Positions 56,242 through 62,792 of a stretch of DNA of 64,000 nucleotides are shown one piece after another. The notes below the pieces were generated by a model that saw only the letters and a program-made list of their open reading frames with translations, was not told the origin of the DNA and searched no databases. Source of the DNA: Candidatus Moraniibacteriota bacterium (GTDB lineage Bacteria; Patescibacteriota; Minisyncoccia; Moranbacterales; UBA9337); assembly GCA_029865125.1 (NCBI GenBank), contig JAOUHN010000001.1, positions 1,360-65,359 of the forward strand, read 5' to 3'. The translations under genes were made by a program, and so were the position numbers. How positions within the stretch are numbered: the first letter of the stretch is position 1; every line of letters starts with the position of its first letter.

Positions 56242-56430
56242 TAAACCCGGAATTTGAATTTTTATTCCAAAGAACTCCTCTCATCTTTGAAACACCAATT
56301 TATTGGTATCTCAATAATGAGTTTCAAACGCCGCGCCGTTTGAACTGATTTTAACCCTTTTTTAAATTAAAGAACTATTTACCACACGCGGGTGACACAC
56401 AAATCAGTCCTCAGACCATATTGTTCCGTC

Positions 56431-56922
56431 TCAGAAAACATGGTCGCCTCCTTCGCCATTAAAGATTCGTATTGATGAGCGAAACTCTTCTTCATCCCGC
56501 TCCTCCTCATCATCAACTGAAGGACCGACTTGCAGTCGATCCCATTCGTAGTCGGTCACGGGAATCACTGGGCGAGCATCCCAAGTGACTCTTTCTGGGG
56601 GATAGACTTCAGTCCAGATAAATTCATCATCTGGGCTGAAATCAACGAATACCACCTTATAGGTGGTTCCGTCGAATGCTACAGCCTCCACGGTTTTTCT
56701 TTTTGCCTTCACCTCCTTCCGATATAGTATATCTATATCGTCCCGATACTGTTCATGATACTCCGCCAAGAGCATTCCCTCGATAAAGGACCTCTTGACA
56801 TCTTCGTCTTCTACGGTGTAGAGGACGTGAACGGTAGCAACCGCTCTCTCATGAAAAGCACACGGGTCAAAGTCCAGCCCAAGATCGAGCATCTTCGCTA
56901 CCTGCGCAGCTATTTTGCTCAT
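56431..56922 (-). CDS. Hypothetical acidic protein, high GC
   Basis: 163 aa with no motif; acidic C-terminal stretch DDEEERDEEEF. Confidence 0.5.
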   Translation of the reverse strand: MSKIAAQVAKMLDLGLDFDPCAFHERAVATVHVLYTVEDEDVKRSFIEGMLLAEYHEQYRDDIDILYRKEVKAKRKTVEAVAFDGTTYKVVFVDFSPDDEFIWTEVYPPERVTWDARPVIPVTDYEWDRLQVGPSVDDEEERDEEEFRSSIRIFNGEGGDHVF

Positions 56923-56949
56923 AAACCAGGGTTATTCTCAGTTTTAGAA

Positions 56950-57155
56950 ACAAATGAAGCGAGCATCTTTTTCATAACCATTCCCTCCTCAGAAAATTTT
57001 GCCCAAAAACGGGCGTTAAACTTTGCTCAAAACGAGCCTTTCTGTTACGAACCTAAAACAACTTTTTTGAAATTATCTTGGGTTCGTAGCAGAAGCCTGA
57101 AAGAAAATATATGATTTTCTCGGATAAATATTTTTTGATTCAAAGAACTTTTCAA
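56950..57155. repeat. Roughly 175-bp direct repeat, copy 1 (contains a conserved hairpin)
   Basis: About 85% identical to 61736-61910; the 3' 50 nt are identical (AAATATATGATTTTCTCGGATAAATATTTTTTGATTCAAAGAACTTTTC). Confidence 0.9.
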
Positions 57156-57228
57156 CTATAAGCTTTCAATAAATTCAAAAGCTTAATAATCGGCAGGAGA
57201 ACGGATCGCTGTCCATTCTCCTGCTTTC

Positions 57229-58107
57229 CTACATTCTTCTTGCTATAGCGGCCTGCCTTACCGCTAGGCTAGAGGAGGAAGAGGTCACATTGGCGAGCTC
57301 AAAGACTCGCTTCACGCACCTCTCCGCCTCCTCACGAGACAAATGCGGTCCTAGTCCAATTCCTTCGCGCAAATACCACTCGCGCGGGGATAGAAGACTG
57401 AAACCTGCATCTGCTACTTTTTCCCGCCAACCATCCTCGGGTAGAATTTCTTCGTTTTCTTTCCCGATATAATGTCGGCGTGAGGCCTCCGGCATCCATG
57501 AACTCATCCGAGCATCGCAATACCGGAGACCTTTGACCGAGATCTCGCTATATCCGAGCTTGTGTAACTCGGACAGGAATCCGAGATCGGAAACTCCTGC
57601 TATATACGGATGCGCTATTGGCAAGGCGCGCACTCCATACTCTTTTGCCAATGCGAGAGTTTCGAGGTGCTGTTGCACCGAAACTCTTTCGATTGGTAAA
57701 TGGTTGCCCGTAATCCCGACTACTAAAAACAGATTGTGATATTGGGCGAGCTGTGCCATTTGCCAACGGCTTGCCGGCCACTTTGACACTAAAGTGACCA
57801 GTTTTGTCCGGGACGCCACCTGCTCAAGAAAATATTGCAAGTAGTAGTCGATTTTTGGCCAGAGAGGATCAGTGATGGCAGTAAATCCGACAAAATCCCC
57901 CTCAAGCACTTCCCAAGGAAAGTTGAAAAAGCGACGTTCAACTTCATTGTTTTCAATGATCCAAGGTGGCACATTGATATATGTGCATGCCTTGTTGATA
58001 CCCGCCACTGGATTTTGATTCCAGACTTCACGGCGGGTATCATGCTCGGTGATGAAACAGTATTTACAAGCCACTGGGCAAGCCGGATTTCCAGCAATGA
58101 ATTTCAT
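57229..58107 (-). CDS. SplB-like radical SAM protein, high GC
   Basis: N-terminal AGNPACPVACKYCFIT (Cx3CxYC[F]); 292 aa. Overlaps the upstream ORF by 4 nt. Confidence 0.7.
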   Translation of the reverse strand: MKFIAGNPACPVACKYCFITEHDTRREVWNQNPVAGINKACTYINVPPWIIENNEVERRFFNFPWEVLEGDFVGFTAITDPLWPKIDYYLQYFLEQVASRTKLVTLVSKWPASRWQMAQLAQYHNLFLVVGITGNHLPIERVSVQQHLETLALAKEYGVRALPIAHPYIAGVSDLGFLSELHKLGYSEISVKGLRYCDARMSSWMPEASRRHYIGKENEEILPEDGWREKVADAGFSLLSPREWYLREGIGLGPHLSREEAERCVKRVFELANVTSSSSSLAVRQAAIARRM

Positions 58108-59261
58108 TTTCTGTTTCCTTTGAAAAAATTTAATAATTCAGTCGGCATACACCCAACTGAACCTTTGTTTGGATACAACTCGCTCACGCAGTACTTGCAC
58201 CCAAAACAATTATCCAGCTGACGCGCCCAGACAAACCAAGAGTTTATGCAATGAATTGACATCTTCGTCAGTTCTTGCATTTTCGTGACATGCCCGACAT
58301 CCTTTCTTGCTCCGTCCACCATACCCGGCTTCACACAAAGCGTTCCACCAAGCACGAACCGACAAAAAGTCAAATCACCAAGGGTTTCGGCATTGTGAAC
58401 CATTACTCGCGGTTGCCTTTGTACGAAACAAGTCGTGCAACACGACTGACATTCTAACCTATTGTCAGTCTGAAACCCACAGACTTGCCTTGAGGCTGGT
58501 TGGTATTCAATATCATATCCAACCTGCCTGAGCCAGATCAAAACTTCCTGATCAGGCTCAACCGGACCACATGTTCCACGTAAGGGACATCCGATCGCCT
58601 CACAGCGCACTAATTGGGGTGAGCCCCAGTATGGATTGAGTGGCTTCTCCCGTCCAGTGAGATATGAAACAGCACAGTTCACTCTCGTGAACAACCGGAT
58701 TCCGTTCTCTTTCGCAACCCGCAAAATCTGATCAAATCCAGTCATCTGTTTCACACGCAAAACCCAGTCTATCGCATTGTCAGGGTTAACCGCCTCTACG
58801 AGAGAAGCGTCTCCGCGAAATCCTGAGACACAGGCCACTTTGCATCCCACTGCCTGAAGGCGAGTGAAAATGCGATTGATTACCTCCTCACTAGTGTTGT
58901 AAGGAGGAATGAGCGGCCGCACTGCTGCAAAACATTTAACTCCTGCTTCCCGAAGATTACGGAGTGTCTCATACCGATGATCGTGTCCGACTTTTTCAAA
59001 TCCGTCAGGAAGCTCACTAATGGAAACCATCACGACAAGCCCAGAAAGATTCAAAAAAGCTAACTCGTTTGCGCGAGATGGACCAATTGATCCTTTGGTG
59101 ATAACACTCACTGGGCCAGTGTGACCCGCCTCAGCCAATAACCGCAACTTCCTCATAGTGTCCTCCCACTGCAAAGTGGGGTCACCATAGTAACAATTTA
59201 TAGATACCGGCATAGACAGCAAAGCCCTTATTATCTTTTTCATAACGCCCTCCTGCGTCAT
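58104..59261 (-). CDS. Cys-rich protein of unknown function (multiple CxxC/CxxCxxC clusters), high GC
   Basis: 385 aa, translationally coupled to the radical SAM gene. C-terminal NCFGCKYC and CQSCCTTC clusters. Confidence 0.55.
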   Translation of the reverse strand: MTQEGVMKKIIRALLSMPVSINCYYGDPTLQWEDTMRKLRLLAEAGHTGPVSVITKGSIGPSRANELAFLNLSGLVVMVSISELPDGFEKVGHDHRYETLRNLREAGVKCFAAVRPLIPPYNTSEEVINRIFTRLQAVGCKVACVSGFRGDASLVEAVNPDNAIDWVLRVKQMTGFDQILRVAKENGIRLFTRVNCAVSYLTGREKPLNPYWGSPQLVRCEAIGCPLRGTCGPVEPDQEVLIWLRQVGYDIEYQPASRQVCGFQTDNRLECQSCCTTCFVQRQPRVMVHNAETLGDLTFCRFVLGGTLCVKPGMVDGARKDVGHVTKMQELTKMSIHCINSWFVWARQLDNCFGCKYCVSELYPNKGSVGCMPTELLNFFKGNRK

Positions 59262-59360
59262 TATTTATATCAAAGAACCTCTAACATTAAATTCTTGCGC
59301 ACAATTGCGCTTTTGGAAAAACCAATTTTGCGTCCCCAAAAGCGCAATCAAGCGCTTATT

Positions 59361-60737
59361 TTATCTTTTTGTTATCTCCTTGATAGCCAAGATGAACCTC
59401 TCAACATCCTCATTGGTATTGCACAAAGAAAATGAAGCTCTGATAAATCCCGGCACCGCGCTTTTCTTTTCGTTTTTAATATTCTCAATAATTTCTTTTT
59501 CATCTTCAATCCTTAGCAACTTTCGAATCACATTATAAACACAGAAACTTCCATATCTTACACCAATACCGAATTCACTGTTCAATCTCTCTGCAACTTT
59601 TTTTGAATTCATACCTTTGATATTAAAAGGCAATACCGTATTTAAATGCTTTTCTGATACATATAACTCAATCTTTGGATTTGATTTTAAATAATCAAAA
59701 GCTTTCTTGGTTAGTTTTTTTTCATAACTTTCAATATTTTCAATCCCAATATTTCTCAATTCTTCTAATGCATACATCATTGACACCGCTCCAACCGCAT
59801 TGGGCGTCCCAGGATCATGAGCTAGCTGATTCTTATATCTCAGAAATTCACCTTCTTTAGTTATGTATGGCAAATTTCCACCACCGATCTCATAAGAAAT
59901 AAATTTGTCAAAGAAATTTTTCGGTCCAATCAAGAATCCTCCGCCATAAGGAGCATAGAACTTATGACCCGATGCCGCCAAAAAGTCGATTCCCATTTTC
60001 TGCATATCTATTTTATGGTGTTGAATGAATTGACAAGCGTCCACAATAAAATACGCCCCGTGTTTATGAACAATTTCTCCAATTTTTTTAATATCAGGAC
60101 AATAACCGGTTGCATTTGATGAGGCGGTCAACACAAAAGCTTTGATTTTATTAGTACTCAAAATATTTTCAATACTTTTCAAATCAAATTCAAACTCATT
60201 ATTAACATCATATTGCACAACCTGCTTTCTTCCTTCTTTTTGAATTTTTTCACTAACATTATCCATTTCAGATAAATCAAACTGCTTCTTGCCTATTTTT
60301 TTAATCCCCTCAGCTTTGATCCAAGGAAGCCACGAGGAAGAATGTTCTATTCCAGAAACAGCTACTTTTCCCTCCAAAAATGAAAAATAATGTGCAGCCG
60401 CATTCATTGCACCTGTTGTATTTCCCGTAAAAACAACGTAATCGCTCTTAGGAGCATTAACAAATTTTTTTATAACATCCCTACTTTTTTCATAAATATC
60501 TGTAGAAATTTTTGATTTTATTCCTGCACCTCTATGAACAGACCCGTAACTAGATAAATATTCATCAACTTTTTTCTGAACAGCTCTAAAGGGAGGTGTT
60601 GTAGCAGCATTATCTAAATTAACATAACGAACAACCCCAAGTTTACTTGTTTCAACTTGGTAATTATGAATTTTACTCAAAAATAATTTCTTTGGATTAA
60701 TTTTCATATAAAAAAATATTAATAATTTTCTCTTCAT
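59361..60737 (-). CDS. Class V aminotransferase / cysteine-desulfurase-like PLP enzyme (AT-rich, native composition)
   Basis: PLP-Lys motif ASGHKFYAPYGGGFL, an N-terminal NLDNAATTP, and a C-terminal GSFC loop. 458 aa. Confidence 0.75.
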   Translation of the reverse strand: MKRKLLIFFYMKINPKKLFLSKIHNYQVETSKLGVVRYVNLDNAATTPPFRAVQKKVDEYLSSYGSVHRGAGIKSKISTDIYEKSRDVIKKFVNAPKSDYVVFTGNTTGAMNAAAHYFSFLEGKVAVSGIEHSSSWLPWIKAEGIKKIGKKQFDLSEMDNVSEKIQKEGRKQVVQYDVNNEFEFDLKSIENILSTNKIKAFVLTASSNATGYCPDIKKIGEIVHKHGAYFIVDACQFIQHHKIDMQKMGIDFLAASGHKFYAPYGGGFLIGPKNFFDKFISYEIGGGNLPYITKEGEFLRYKNQLAHDPGTPNAVGAVSMMYALEELRNIGIENIESYEKKLTKKAFDYLKSNPKIELYVSEKHLNTVLPFNIKGMNSKKVAERLNSEFGIGVRYGSFCVYNVIRKLLRIEDEKEIIENIKNEKKSAVPGFIRASFSLCNTNEDVERFILAIKEITKR

Positions 60738-60895
60738 CTCAAATCTTATTCGTATATTTGTAAATTTGTGAAAAATTTGTAATTCATATACTAAATAAGA
60801 TCTGAGAAAAGGGATAGAGCAGGCAAGCGCTGTTGCGTGCTCTATCTGTTGTGAGAGAGTTTAGTTTAGGCACTCTCTCGGAAGCCTTGAAATAT

Positions 60896-61732
60896 TTATC
60901 CTTTTACAACTACCCCGGCAAACCCACGAGTGGGATTGCCATAGGCATTTCCGATCCGATTTGGGAGTGAGTTTCCCCACCCCATAAACCGATTGACGAT
61001 CTCGGGCGTCGTATGTCCGCCGAGAACAATTTTCTTGTTCCCGGTTGGGTTCCGGTCGCGATCGACATCGTCGATCATGGCAATGTAGGCCTCGCCCGTT
61101 ACCAATGCCGCCTCAGGCAGTTCATCGATTAAACCGGCCTCGCGAAGATCGCGGACACCGTCCACGACCTTTGCCTCCTGAAGCTTGTCTTTGGCCTTGG
61201 CGATAAACTCCCGAATTTTTTCTTCATCTGCCTTTTGGGCAGTTCGAGGGTTAGTGGCATAAAATGCCGCCTTCCCCTTGATGCGAAACTCTAAAAACTC
61301 CTCCGGGTCAATCCCAGAGCAACGCCCAGCATAGGCATCCGCTGGGCAATGGTCACCGGCAGCAACCAATTCCAGCTGATGAGTACGCTCCACACCAAGG
61401 ATGGCGCAAAGCTGCCCCAAGGAGGAAGCGTCCCAGTACCGGTCGGCCCCGAGACCATAACCGAAATCGCCAGGATTGTGGTGGTCGCAAATGCCAACCA
61501 CCGACATGGAGCCGGCACAGTTCGGGTTGACCTCGAATATAATTACCTGTTGAACAAGAGCGAAATCACCCTCGTCAACAACGTAACCATCTGCCTGGTA
61601 AGCATTGCCCCCGTGGACTTTCGTCCCGGAGACAGTTGCTGTGGCCAGCACACATCCCGCTTCACGGGCCACATTGCGTGCTGCTTGCTCTTCGTTATCT
61701 TGGCCACCGAAAACTACCATTGTATTTTTCAT
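60896..61732 (-). CDS. Hypothetical protein, high GC
   Basis: 278 aa with roughly 57% GC. No recognised motif (contains CDHHNPGD). Confidence 0.5.
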   Translation of the reverse strand: MKNTMVVFGGQDNEEQAARNVAREAGCVLATATVSGTKVHGGNAYQADGYVVDEGDFALVQQVIIFEVNPNCAGSMSVVGICDHHNPGDFGYGLGADRYWDASSLGQLCAILGVERTHQLELVAAGDHCPADAYAGRCSGIDPEEFLEFRIKGKAAFYATNPRTAQKADEEKIREFIAKAKDKLQEAKVVDGVRDLREAGLIDELPEAALVTGEAYIAMIDDVDRDRNPTGNKKIVLGGHTTPEIVNRFMGWGNSLPNRIGNAYGNPTRGFAGVVVKG

Positions 61733-61735
61733 CGC

Positions 61736-61910
61736 TTTTCCTCCTCGGGAAATATTTGCCCAAAAGCGGGCGTTAATTTTGCTCGAAAATGAGCTCTTCT
61801 ACTACGAGCCCAAAACAACTTTTTTAAAATTATCTTGAGTTCGTAGTAGAAGCTTGAAGGAAAATATATGATTTTCTCGGATAAATATTTTTTGATTCAA
61901 AGAACTTTTC
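61736..61910. repeat. Roughly 175-bp direct repeat, copy 2
   Basis: See copy 1. The internal hairpin shows compensatory changes between copies. Confidence 0.9.
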
Positions 61911-61969
61911 TCTCTGGTCAAAATAACCAAGAGATTCTTGAGTCCAACCACAAGGATTGTTCCCAAAAA

Positions 61970-62000
61970 TAAAAAGCTTTCCAACCGGAAAGCTTTTTGC
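61970..62000. terminator. Bidirectional terminator (AAGCTTTCC-AACC-GGAAAGCTT)
   Basis: A 9-bp perfect stem with A and T runs on either side. Confidence 0.65.
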
Positions 62001-62792
62001 ATGACTCTTCAAGAGAAACTAAACACGACTAAAGTCCTCGAGAAAAGTCTTGCAAGAAACCTTCCTATTCGCCTGCATTGAAGCGAAGCTTTGTCGTGTT
62101 TTAGTTGTTATCAAAATACTGTTATAATAAACTCACTATTCTTCTTCCGAAGAATGGATGATCCGCCTATCTTTTTAGATCCTGTATTAAACAGGCTCCA
62201 TAGCCGGGACCAGTCCATTCATCGCAATGGATGAATAAATTGTAGGGTTACCGGGTTTCGGAATAGCCCGAGATCAATTGAACTTTGTCAATCACTATCT
62301 CAAACTGAGACACCACCCGGATTTTTATGAACTATCCTCTGCATTGAGAGGAGGTGATCTTTTAATATCACTGGATTGAAACTTATTATTCTAAGATTCA
62401 ACACCGCTAATATCAATGTGACTGCCTGTTGCCATAACTGTTTTTCTCATCTTGACTCATTACTATACCATAGCTTTACAAAATTGTCAATAGTTTGTGA
62501 ATGCATTTGACTATCTATCCTACTTTGGCTTAATACGGCCCTTTGTTCAGGAAGCATTCTGTCACAATGCATTCACAAATATTTGACACTATGTTTTCCA
62601 CTTAATTATCAATGTTCTTTTGTTCTCTTAATCACCCAGCCCTTACTGCCTTTTCTCATCTTGACTAGTCAGTATAGCATGCTATCACAATATTGTCAAT
62701 ACCCTGTGACTGCTTTTTCCAACATTTCAGTATTATGGCTTAAATTAGGCTTATATCTCATTTTATTTTGCTTTAAAAATATTCACGATTGT

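What the first reader, a model, noticed from the sequence alone, without database searches (positions are those of the whole stretch)
56950..61910. Two roughly 175-bp direct repeats bracket a 4.6-kb segment and contain a hairpin with compensatory base changes
Copy 1 (56950-57155) and copy 2 (61736-61910) are about 85% identical with an identical 50-nt 3' block. Each sits immediately upstream, on the minus strand, of a high-GC gene. Inside, copy 1 has CTGTTACGAACC...GGTTCGTAGCAG and copy 2 has CTACTACGAGCC...GAGTTCGTAGTAG. Pairing is preserved through G-C to A-U and U-G to C-G changes, which argues for selection on RNA structure. They could be repeated 5'UTR or cis-regulatory RNA elements, or recombinogenic ends of a mobile cassette. 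The small ORFs in the track over these repeats encode similar peptides only because of the repeat.
Basis: seen in the sequence. Interest (0 to 1): 0.7.

Follow-up and report, generated by a model that had tools for sequence, protein, structure and literature searches.

The report
Duplicated boxA-type leader before island genes
The two repeats are copies of one 5' control region placed in front of two neighbouring gene sets in a Candidatus Moranbacteria genome; it starts with a sequence identical to the ribosomal-RNA antitermination signal boxA, and related genomes use the same kind of module in front of many swappable unknown genes.

Summary
The repeat is real: 56968-57153 and 61725-61910 are 87% identical (blastn E 4e-59), end in a 51-nt identical block, and are the only two copies in the window. 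On the minus (gene) strand each copy is a complete 5' leader. It runs: hairpin, GTTCTTTGAA box, pyrimidine anti-SD, a 23-26 bp hairpin, two small GC hairpins, SD, ATGAAAAA. Copy 2 leads the 278-aa gene. Copy 1 is the derived duplicate: its start codon opens an 18-codon mini-ORF whose stop overlaps the start of an orphan 163-aa gene.

Within the window there is only one true compensatory pair. Related Moranbacteria loci make the stronger case. They carry 2-11 modules of the same design, all on the gene strand. The box matches the γ-proteobacterial boxA consensus at 10 of 11 positions and is identical to the 16S-23S spacer motif of Priestia. The hairpin before it covaries strongly. Two 99.9%-identical strains differ by exactly one cassette plus one module.

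Best reading: a portable, recombinogenic nut-like (boxB-boxA) leader. Nus-factor binding, the transcription start and the effect on translation are untested.

The parts
61725..61910 (-). Repeat copy 2: complete 5' leader of the 278-aa gene, running from 5 nt before the box through ATGAAAAA.
56968..57153 (-). Repeat copy 1: the same leader in front of the mini-ORF and the 163-aa ORF. This is the derived copy.
61860..61910 (-). 51-nt block identical in both copies (copy 2), GAAAAGTTCTTTGAATCAAAAAATATTTATCCGAGAAAATCATATATTTTC.
   Evidence: A run this long has P = 0.007 under evenly spread differences.
57103..57153 (-). 51-nt identical block (copy 1).
61896..61905 (-). boxA-like box GTTCTTTGAA (copy 2).
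   Evidence: It matches the consensus GYTCTTTAANA (PMC5725501) and is identical to the Priestia megaterium 16S-23S spacer motif.
57139..57148 (-). boxA-like box GTTCTTTGAA (copy 1).
57160..57184 (-). boxB-like hairpin AAGCTTTTGAATTTATTGAAAGCTT, followed by ATAG; its extended stem in the fold ends 4 nt before the box. It lies outside the repeated segment.
   Evidence: (z -3.5)
61909..61934 (-). Weaker hairpin before the box of copy 2 (11 bp, 3-nt loop).
   Evidence: (z -2.6)
57195..57222 (-). Hairpin at the 3' end of the 292-aa radical-SAM-like gene, upstream of copy 1.
61971..61998 (-). Strong terminator-like hairpin plus T run upstream of copy 2. It marks the end of the putative ncRNA.
61856..61864 (-). 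Pyrimidine anti-SD UUUUCCUUC (copy 2), predicted to pair with GGAGGAAAA at the SD.
57097..57107 (-). Anti-SD UUUUCUUUCAG (copy 1).
61796..61852 (-). Long hairpin of copy 2 (26 bp on the sense strand, with a G.U-rich inner helix).
57038..57095 (-). Long hairpin of copy 1 (23 bp, two C.A mismatches).
61758..61794 (-). Two small hairpins of copy 2: GCTCATTTTCGAGC (61781-61794) and GCCCGCTTTTGGGC (61758-61771).
57001..57037 (-). Two small hairpins of copy 1: GCTCGTTTTGAGC (57025-57037) and GCCCGTTTTTGGGC (57001-57014).
61740..61746 (-). Shine-Dalgarno GAGGAGG of the 278-aa gene.
56983..56990 (-). Shine-Dalgarno GAGGAGGG of copy 1.
60896..61732 (-). 278-aa gene (hyp278). It is conserved in CPR bacteria and has a DHH-type motif and an NrN-like fold. 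Its own start codon ATGAAAAA is the last 8 nt of the repeat.
56919..56975 (-). 18-codon mini-ORF MKKMLASFVSKTENNPGL opened by the duplicated start codon. Its TGA overlaps the ATG of the 163-aa ORF (ATGA).
56431..56922 (-). 163-aa ORF with no SD of its own and no homologue found (orphan).
56264..56344 (-). Third, short module before the 273-aa polynucleotide-kinase-like gene: terminator-like hairpin 56323-56344, boxB-like hairpin 56280-56321, box GTTCTTTGGAAT 56264-56275, then 49 nt to the ATG.
   Evidence: (z -7.3)
59267..59278 (-). Partial box GTTCTTTGATAT, 35 nt before the ATG of the 379-aa radical-SAM-like gene.

Best explanation
The two repeats are paralogous copies of one composite 5' leader module. 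They head two neighbouring transcription units on the minus strand of a variable gene island in a Candidatus Moranbacteria genome.

Module layout, 5' to 3' on the gene strand:
- a hairpin
- the box GTTCTTTGAA
- a pyrimidine anti-SD
- a 23-26 bp hairpin
- two small GC hairpins
- the SD and the start codon

I read the hairpin plus box as an rrn-type nut-like site (boxB-boxA). In that reading it loads NusB/S10 and the other Nus factors onto RNA polymerase. This protects the long untranslated leader and the genes behind it from premature termination. It also keeps the 5' part of the leader tethered, so that the anti-SD closes on the SD. Translation would then be off by default, and the roughly 25-bp hairpin could act as an RNase III-type release point.

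Copy 2 is the original leader of the 278-aa gene. Copy 1 arose by duplication of that leader together with the first 8 nt of the coding sequence. It now drives an orphan gene through a coupled 18-codon mini-ORF.

As direct repeats the modules are also substrates for homologous recombination that adds, removes and shuffles gene cassettes.

What is shown:
- the anatomy
- the box identity at sequence level
- covariation of the upstream hairpin
- the strand asymmetry of folding
- cassette gain or loss at modules in relatives

What is inferred:
- Nus binding
- antitermination
- translational repression and its release
- the position of the transcription start
For: Anatomy.

Same design elsewhere. 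Modules beginning with GTTCTTTGA occur 28 times on the gene strand and 3 times on the other strand in 371 kb of non-redundant loci, against 3.6 expected. L021 has 11 in 12.5 kb, each before a different ORF.

Box identity. It matches the gamma-proteobacterial boxA consensus GYTCTTTAANA at 10 of 11 positions (PMC5725501). GTTCTTTGAAAA is present verbatim in the 16S-23S spacer of a Priestia megaterium rRNA operon, about 11 nt after a hairpin. It is also the start of the Mycoplasma spacer primer GTTCTTTGAAAACTGAAT (PMC4312986). Mycoplasma spacers are reported to carry boxA and boxB motifs (PMC3979950). The rrn order boxB-boxA-boxC and the tethering of the 5' element are described in PMC8632103.

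Hairpin before the box:
- It ends 2-8 nt upstream of the box in most of the 28 sites folded.
- 86.7% of cells are paired, against 60.5% in shuffles and 36-48% when the partners are slid.
- 10 of 11 pairs show double changes.
- A G.U pair is kept in 18 of 23 sequences.

Sense-strand RNA. 20 of 21 modules fold better in sense than in antisense, with 165 vs 59 G.U pairs. Two long-hairpin types covary without broken pairs.

Position. The box lies only 35 and 49 nt before two start codons in the window, so there it cannot be a -50 promoter element.

Recombination. L018 and L021 share only hyp278, the modules and the flank. L021 and L022 differ by one cassette plus one module.

Direction of duplication. 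Several hyp278 homologues start with ATGAAAAA. The 163-aa ORF has no homologue and no SD.
Against: - There are no transcription-start data. No sigma-70-type promoter is evident upstream of the box, and one weak match that includes it occurs only in copy 1.
- Every module follows a terminator-like hairpin, so each unit needs a promoter that I could not locate.
- In the GC-rich relatives the upstream hairpin is followed by UUUUGUUCUUUG, which also looks like an intrinsic terminator.
- In Clostridia-like viral contigs the same motif lies about 30 nt upstream of an extended -10. That would fit a DNA-level element.
- nusB, rho and the rRNA operon of this organism are not in any sequence held, so its own boxA is unknown.
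- The window copies match the position-weight matrix built from relatives only weakly, and the upstream hairpin of copy 2 is weak.
- Leaders of hyp278 orthologues differ greatly, and some lack the long hairpin.
- SD pairing is common among control genes, so the top rank of this leader (1 of 33) is weak evidence.
- Within the window the long hairpin has one compensatory change against about four mismatch-creating ones.
Confidence: 0.55

Rival explanations
1. The box is a DNA element: a promoter element, or an operator for an alternative sigma factor or a regulator such as the TrmB-like protein encoded next to hyp278. The 51-nt identical block is the promoter. The hairpins only stabilise the mRNA and mask the SD.
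For: - Each unit follows a terminator and needs its own promoter.
- The most conserved part of the repeat is the box-proximal 51 nt.
- A TATATT lies about 28 nt after the box in the window.
- An extended -10 lies about 30 nt after the same motif in viral contigs.
- A TrmB-family gene neighbours hyp278 in the window and in L003, L004, L006, L010 and L011.
- GTTCTTTGAAC in one module is a perfect palindrome.
Against: - The boxes before the kinase-like gene and the radical-SAM-like gene lie 49 and 35 nt from the ATG, too close for a -50 element.
- The hairpin just upstream keeps a G.U pair in 18 of 23 sequences, which points to RNA on the sense strand.
- The L021-type arrays have no TrmB gene within 16 kb.
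- No -35/-10 pair at proper spacing is shared by the modules.
- The verbatim identity to an rRNA spacer motif would be a coincidence.
Confidence: 0.2
2. Hairpin plus box is simply the intrinsic terminator of the upstream gene. The repeated unit is then a terminator-promoter-leader composite like the PeSL cassettes of T4-type phages, and the resemblance to boxA is chance because both are U-rich.
For: In L003, L018 and L021 the hairpin is followed directly by UUUUGUUCUUUG. The terminator scan finds twice as many sites as in shuffles across the island (18 vs 7.3). PeSLs are such composites and mediate shuffling (PMC2839356, PMC4122927; titles and abstract openings).
Against: - A U-tract does not need invariant G, C and GAA, yet GTTCTTTGA is kept across genomes of 38-50% GC while everything around it changes.
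- In the window the stems are followed by AAAA or AGGA, not by U.
- One box sits 18 nt from any hairpin.
- Most modules already have a separate upstream terminator hairpin with its own T run.
Confidence: 0.15
3. A recent neutral segmental duplication with no function of its own, or the ends of a transposable or site-specific element (MITE, integron attC).
For: There are only two copies in the window. A public 4766-nt contig begins and ends inside the repeat.
Against: - 13% divergence alongside a 51-nt identical block is not the pattern of a recent neutral copy.
- The unit ends exactly at SD plus start codon and is used to translate a gene that lacks its own SD.
- No integrase appears among the called genes of three related arrays.
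- GTTCTTT does not fit the attC core GTTRRRY.
- The contig ends are what a k=31 assembly graph gives at a 51-nt shared block.
Confidence: 0.05
4. The leader is a ligand-sensing riboswitch or another already described cis-regulatory RNA.
For: It is a long, highly structured 5' UTR with the SD sequestered.
Against: No Rfam family matches at gathering or permissive thresholds. The structured core is a near-perfect hairpin whose sequence is not conserved between modules, with no conserved junctions or loops of the kind aptamers have.
Confidence: 0.03

Closest known systems
rrn nut-like antitermination elements (boxB-boxA-boxC) in rRNA leaders and 16S-23S spacers
   Same: The box is identical to the spacer motif GTTCTTTGAAAA of Priestia and matches GYTCTTTAANA at 10 of 11 positions. 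A hairpin lies a few nucleotides upstream, which is the rrn order. The sequence just after the box pairs with a distant downstream segment, as the rRNA leader pairs with the trailer.
   Different: It precedes protein-coding genes, mostly orphans, rather than rRNA. It is repeated many times per locus in relatives. The distal partner is the SD. No boxC was identified, and Nus binding is untested.
BoxA in the E. coli suhB 5' UTR and upstream of CRISPR arrays (PMC5725501, PMC7665894)
   Same: These are boxA elements outside rRNA that control expression of what lies downstream. BoxA prevents Rho termination of CRISPR arrays; for suhB the abstract states repression. That this repression acts on translation and so permits Rho termination is from my own knowledge.
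   Different: Those are single sites close to the target. Here the box is part of a 110-185 nt structured module that is duplicated and exchanged between genes.
Phage lambda N leader (nutL, RNase III-sensitive hairpin, SD of N); from my own knowledge, not checked in a paper here
   Same: The order is nut site, then a long double-stranded hairpin, then the SD. In lambda the complex at nutL represses N translation, and RNase III cleavage of the hairpin relieves it.
   Different: There is no N-like protein here. The box order is the rrn type (hairpin first). RNase III cleavage here is only a guess based on hairpin length.
PeSL promoter-stem-loop mobile regulatory cassettes of T4-type phages (PMC2839356, PMC4122927)
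   Same: Both are repeated intergenic regulatory composites that flank small orphan genes in hypervariable regions. Their similarity lets homologous recombination insert, delete and swap genes. Here L021 and L022 differ by one cassette, with the crossover in the module.
   Different: These are bacterial chromosomes of the Candidate Phyla Radiation, not phages. The module carries a boxA-like box and a long SD-masking leader. No promoter consensus was recognised.
Integron gene-cassette arrays with attC sites
   Same: Both are same-strand arrays of unrelated small genes separated by structured repeats that are similar within a genome and differ between genomes.
   Different: No integrase was found and no RYYYAAC/GTTRRRY cores are present. 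The repeat lies 5' of each gene and carries its SD. The exchange looks homologous, not site-specific.

Membership tests
rrn-type nut-like element (boxB-boxA) | Linear boxA sequence matching the consensus recognised by NusB-NusE | tested here: met
   GTTCTTTGAAT matches GYTCTTTAANA at 10 of 11 positions. GTTCTTTGAAAA occurs verbatim in the Priestia megaterium 16S-23S spacer. The positions called critical, G2, C5 and U6 (PMC3177189), are kept.
rrn-type nut-like element (boxB-boxA) | boxB hairpin directly upstream of boxA | tested here: met
   A hairpin ends 2-8 nt before the box in most of the 28 sites folded, with strong covariation. In the window it is clear for copy 1 (57160-57184) and the kinase module (56280-56321), and weak for copy 2.
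rrn-type nut-like element (boxB-boxA) | The element lies in the transcript, downstream of the promoter | tested here: inconclusive
   It is always on the gene strand, and the upstream hairpin keeps a G.U pair. No transcription start is known and no promoter was recognised upstream.
rrn-type nut-like element (boxB-boxA) | The same boxA is present in the organism's own rRNA leader or spacer | not testable with these tools
rrn-type nut-like element (boxB-boxA) | Binding of NusB-S10 and a Nus-dependent effect on termination | not testable with these tools
   This needs biochemistry or genetics. The presence of nusB and rho in this genome was not checked.
PeSL-like mobile regulatory cassette | Repeated intergenic composite flanking variable small genes, with indel end points inside the repeats | tested here: met
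   Met in relatives: 11 modules in L021, cassette content differs between L018 and L021, and there is a one-cassette indel between L021 and L022. For the window itself no variant was observed.
PeSL-like mobile regulatory cassette | Recognisable early-type promoter within the composite | tested here: inconclusive
   The sigma-70 scan found only a weak 9/12 match, specific to copy 1. No shared -35/-10 pair was seen across modules.
PeSL-like mobile regulatory cassette | Located in a T4-type phage genome | tested here: not met
   The flanks are chromosomal (gyrA, rpsO and tRNAs in the window; helicase and rpsA in L021). There is no match in the phage collection.
Integron cassette array (attC) | Adjacent integron integrase and attC core sites RYYYAAC/GTTRRRY | tested here: not met
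   No integrase domain appears among the called genes within 10-16 kb of three arrays. GTTCTTT does not fit GTTRRRY.
Any Rfam family (riboswitch, leader, sRNA) | Score at or above the family's gathering threshold | tested here: not met
   Only tRNAs pass in the window. The best permissive hits over copy 1 are far below threshold.

The most novel reading that the evidence does not exclude
Moranbacteria (Candidate Phyla Radiation) run an integrase-free gene-capture platform. A portable nut-like leader (boxB-boxA, anti-SD, long hairpin, SD) is placed in front of each acquired gene. It puts dozens of orphan, RNA-repair and signal-nucleotide-degrading cassettes under Nus-factor control, and its repeats mediate cassette gain, loss and shuffling by homologous recombination. 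The window shows a small, diverged instance of this system, with two full and two partial modules.
Probability: 0.3. Interest if true: 0.8.

Novelty: new variant of a known kind. Interest (0 to 1): 0.6.

Why it matters
BoxA and Nus factors are usually seen as an rRNA and phage-lambda device, with a few single-gene exceptions. If this reading is right, a ribosomal antitermination signal has been recruited as a repeated, exchangeable expression module for horizontally moving genes. It would do so in bacteria with tiny genomes and few regulators.

The reading also gives a concrete, testable motif for finding transcription-unit starts and variable islands in CPR genomes, where almost nothing is known about gene regulation. 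It links those islands to functions that look like RNA repair and defence-signal turnover: RtcB, a polynucleotide-kinase-like protein, an NrN-like DHH protein and a Csx3-like protein.

If the boxA reading fails, the finding is still a clean case of a duplicated regulatory leader captured by an orphan gene, which is ordinary.

Tried and rejected
- Rfam at gathering threshold over the whole window, and at E up to 10 over copy 1: only tRNAs and noise.
- Further copies in the window by blastn with word size 7: none.
- Exact 20-mer ATTTATCCGAGAAAATCATA in metagenome and viral contigs: none, not even the source contig.
- The whole repeat against the phage collection: none.
- Sequence similarity of the window leader to upstream regions of 30 hyp278 homologues: none. 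The link to other loci therefore rests on the box and the architecture, not on alignable leaders.
- Sigma-70 promoter scan: no more hits than in shuffles, and nothing shared by the two copies.
- SD-sequestration test against 33 control starts in the window: the hyp278 leader ranks first for pairing and stability. Many controls also score high, so I do not rely on it.
- Homologues of the 163-aa ORF: none, so its usual context cannot be compared.
- Circular or excised form suggested by the 4766-nt Logan contig: rejected. Its ends are positions 22 and 30 of the 51-nt shared block, as expected from a k=31 graph.
- rRNA genes in held sequences, to read the lineage's own boxA: none.
- Similarity of the 1-kb non-coding stretch upstream of copy 2 to other loci or to Rfam: none.
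- Readings considered and dropped: integron, MITE and riboswitch (see rivals).

Full report
**1. Observation**

The direct repeat is real. The repeat finder reports 56968-57153 and 61725-61910, 186 nt, with a start-to-start spacing of 4757 nt. With three short indels, 165 of 189 columns are identical, which is 87%. blastn gives E 4e-59, and no third copy exists in the 64-kb window. The last 51 nt on the plus strand (57103-57153 and 61860-61910) are identical. If the 24 differences were spread evenly, a run that long would occur with P = 0.007.

The inverted repeat inside each copy is present.

The compensatory-change claim holds only in part. There is one true double change (G-C to A-U) and three wobble-compatible single changes. 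By my hand reading of the aligned arms, about four single changes put a mismatch in one copy or the other.

**2. Anatomy on the gene (minus) strand**

| Element | Copy 2 | Copy 1 |
|---|---|---|
| Terminator-like hairpin of the preceding unit | 61971-61998 | 57195-57222 |
| Second hairpin | 61909-61934 (weak) | 57160-57184 |
| Box GTTCTTTGAA | 61896-61905 | 57139-57148 |
| Pyrimidine stretch (anti-SD) | 61856-61864 | 57097-57107 |
| Long hairpin | 61796-61852 (26 bp) | 57038-57095 (23 bp) |
| Two small GC hairpins | 61758-61794 | 57001-57037 |
| SD (GAGGAGG) | 61740-61746 | 56983-56990 |

Each copy ends in ATGAAAAA.

As RNA the sense strand folds at -53.7 and -47.4 kcal/mol (z -6.6 and -4.9), against -42.9 and -38.3 for the antisense strand. 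In the predicted structure the pyrimidine stretch pairs with the SD and closes the whole leader.

Copy 2 runs into the 278-aa ORF (hyp278, 60896-61732). Several hyp278 homologues also begin with ATGAAAAA, so the last 8 nt of the repeat belong to hyp278, and copy 2 is the original.

In copy 1 the duplicated start codon opens an 18-codon ORF (56919-56975). Its TGA overlaps the ATG of the 163-aa ORF (ATGA). That ORF has no SD of its own. It has no homologue in a search of 5.8 billion protein clusters. I conclude that copy 1 is a captured expression module, coupled to an orphan gene.

**3. Context**

The contig is from a Candidatus Moranbacteria MAG. On the minus strand the island reads, in order:
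- hyp278
- a low-GC class V aminotransferase
- two radical-SAM-like genes
- copy 1, then the 163-aa orphan
- a polynucleotide-kinase-like gene
- a tRNA

A third, short module precedes the kinase-like gene: hairpin 56280-56321, then box GTTCTTTGGAAT at 56264-56275, 49 nt from the ATG. A partial box, GTTCTTTGATAT at 59267-59278, lies 35 nt before the first radical-SAM-like gene.

**4. Related loci**

hyp278 has 114 homologues, those with source names being CPR (Candidate Phyla Radiation) bacteria. I fetched about 50 loci. Their upstream regions cannot be aligned with the window leader. Several Moranbacteria loci nevertheless carry their own intergenic repeats, and these begin with the same box.

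GTTCTTTGA occurs 28 times on the gene strand and 3 times on the other strand in 371 kb of non-redundant loci, against 3.6 expected. A position-weight matrix finds the strong sites only on the gene strand. Box counts per locus (GTTCTTTGA) are:
- L021: 11 in 12.5 kb
- L003: 5
- L018: 3
- L012: 2

Each box precedes a different ORF. These ORFs include RtcB and hyp278, and most of the rest have no family match.

Folding the stretch from the box to the start codon gives the same architecture every time, over 111-185 nt: box, CCUCC-like stretch, long hairpin, small hairpin (often with a UUCG loop), SD. The long hairpin has at least 23 bp in 15 of 20 distinct modules. Its sequence differs between module types. 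Two types in L003, L018 and L021 are homologous and covary, with CG to UA in 6 of 13 sequences and no broken pairs.

Sense RNA is more stable than antisense in 20 of 21 modules, with 165 vs 59 G.U pairs. This favours RNA structure on the gene strand, although G+U richness contributes to the asymmetry.

**5. What the box is**

The box matches the gamma-proteobacterial boxA consensus GYTCTTTAANA at 10 of 11 positions (PMC5725501). It keeps G2, C5 and U6, which are singled out in the NusB-NusE-BoxA structure paper (PMC3177189).

A viral-contig scan with the extended motif led me to test a recollection that Bacillota rRNA spacers carry this exact sequence. A Priestia megaterium plasmid-borne rRNA operon has GTTCTTTGAAAACTAGATAAC in its 16S-23S spacer, about 11 nt after a hairpin. 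Variants GAACTTTGAAAA and GCACTTTGAAAA occur in the Priestia and Clostridioides leaders and spacers.

The Mycoplasma spacer primer GTTCTTTGAAAACTGAAT begins with the same sequence (PMC4312986). Mycoplasma spacers are reported to carry boxA and boxB motifs (PMC3979950). Some Moranbacteria modules even share the extension, for example GTTCTTTGAAAATTGAGTAG and GTTCTTTGAACACTGAATAG.

In rrn operons the order is boxB hairpin, boxA, boxC. The 5' element stays fastened to the polymerase and helps long-range helices to form (PMC8632103).

Consistent with a boxB, a hairpin ends 2-8 nt before the box in most of the 28 sites folded. In an alignment of 23 modules:
- 86.7% of cells pair, against 60.5% in shuffles (0 of 500 shuffles reach the observed value) and 36-48% when the partners are slid.
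- 10 of 11 pairs show double changes.
- One G.U pair is kept in 18 of 23 sequences.

Copy 1 and the kinase module of the window fit this alignment, including the TTATT before the hairpin and the ATAG after it. Copy 2 fits less well.

**6. Recombination**

L018 and L021 have hyp278 at 89% nucleotide identity and a right flank at 96%. Otherwise they share only the modules, and the genes between the modules differ.

L021 and L022 are 99.9% identical over 8.2 kb. They differ by about 704 bp. That is exactly one 156-aa cassette plus one module, and the junction lies in a stretch common to two adjacent modules. This is the product expected from homologous recombination between direct-repeat modules.

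No integrase domain is recorded among the called genes of these arrays. For the window itself no deletion or duplication variant was seen. The 4766-nt Logan contig that ends inside the repeat is an assembly-graph break.

**7. Mechanism**

My best reading is a portable nut-like leader, and I rate it at about 0.55.

Inferred steps:
- The hairpin plus box recruits NusB-S10 and the other Nus factors.
- This guards a long untranslated leader and poorly translated acquired genes from termination.
- The tethered 5' segment delivers the anti-SD to the SD, so translation is masked.
- The roughly 25-bp duplex could be an RNase III-type release point, as in the lambda N leader. That comparison is from my own knowledge.

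Shown: the anatomy, the sequence identity of the box with rrn boxA, covariation of the upstream hairpin, the strand asymmetry, and module-mediated cassette gain or loss in relatives.

Not shown: the transcription start, Nus binding, any effect on termination or translation, and the boxA of this lineage's own rRNA. No rRNA gene is present in any sequence held.

**8. Rivals**

- A DNA-level promoter or operator element (0.2). A promoter is needed after each terminator, and a -10-like hexamer follows the box by about 30 nt in the window and in Clostridia-like viral contigs. Against this, two boxes lie only 35-49 nt from start codons, and the conserved G.U pair points to RNA.
- A terminator U-tract within a PeSL-like composite (0.15). 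The GC-rich relatives fit this reading, but it does not explain the invariant G, C and GAA, or the A-rich spacers in the window.
- A neutral duplication, MITE or attC site (0.05), and a riboswitch (0.03), fit poorly.

**9. Comparison and novelty**

By sequence and layout the element resembles rrn nut-like sites and the non-rRNA boxA cases (suhB, CRISPR leaders). By genome behaviour it resembles the PeSL cassettes of T4-type phages (PMC2839356, PMC4122927). I did not find this combination described. A search for Patescibacteria with 'intergenic' and 'promoter motif' returned nothing.

I file it as a new variant of known kinds. Membership in the boxA family is supported by sequence and by the neighbouring hairpin. 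The functional criteria remain open.

Noticed in passing
window 61968-62717, minus strand: About 1 kb between the TrmB-like gene and copy 2 has no long ORF. It holds two tandem near-consensus promoters (TTGACA-17-TATAGT at 62462-62490 and TTGACA-17-TATACT at 62671-62699), themselves a 67-nt direct repeat, and a strong terminator (61971-61998). The 488-nt stretch from the first promoter to the terminator folds with z -5.9. It contains GATCACCTCCT (62349-62359), which I recognise as the 3' tail (anti-SD) of 16S rRNA. It has no Rfam match and no similarity to other loci. It is a candidate new ncRNA.
   Followed up: partly
window 60896-61732, minus strand: The 278-aa protein has an invariant DHH motif. 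Its AlphaFold model is confident (pLDDT 94.5), and its best solved-structure matches are NrN, crystallised with SAM-AMP (Foldseek E 1e-5, TM 0.49). The gene is 10-19 points richer in GC than its surroundings in most of the 14 loci compared, so high GC is a family trait and not proof of recent transfer.
   Followed up: partly
L059, L060, L061 and L021 (Ga0194126_10006443, Ga0194119_10007406, Ga0194127_10007888): The module-flanked arrays hold RtcB, a weak Csx3-like protein and a DEAD/HA2 helicase next to hyp278. The window has a polynucleotide-kinase-like gene. Together this suggests an RNA-repair or defence-signal-turnover theme for these islands.
   Followed up: no
window 56431-56922, minus strand: The 163-aa ORF behind copy 1 has no homologue other than itself in the 5.8-billion-cluster protein search and no Pfam or PHROG match.
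   Followed up: yes
window 57229-59243 and 59361-60737, minus strand: Two adjacent, overlapping radical-SAM-like genes (weak Pfam hits; one has CxxxCxxC near its N terminus) sit next to a low-GC class V aminotransferase that has its own promoter-like site. None of them was found next to hyp278 in the seven genome-collection loci checked by tblastn.
   Followed up: no
L064, L066, L067 (IMG/VR UViG 2617271218, 27-30% GC): Clostridia-like viral contigs carry ATAGAGAATTTGTTCTTTGAAAATTGAATAG between small genes. This is the same hairpin-ATAGAG-box composite as in Moranbacteria locus L012, here followed by an extended -10 (TGCTATAAT). The motif may be used more widely in mobile DNA of low-GC bacteria.
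   Followed up: partly
L012 4658-4667: A box (GTTCTTTGAAAC) preceded by a hairpin lies between the ribosomal protein L21 gene and the next ORF. This is a ribosome-related context, as expected for a boxA.
   Followed up: no
L056 7256-7639: In the L003-type lineage a bAvd / 23S-rRNA-IVP-family gene (the accessory protein family of diversity-generating retroelements) sits between the TrmB-like gene and hyp278.
   Followed up: no
L002 1-30 and 4737-4766: A public Logan contig of 4766 nt begins and ends inside the 51-nt identical block. This is an assembly break at the repeat and not evidence of a circle.
   Followed up: yes
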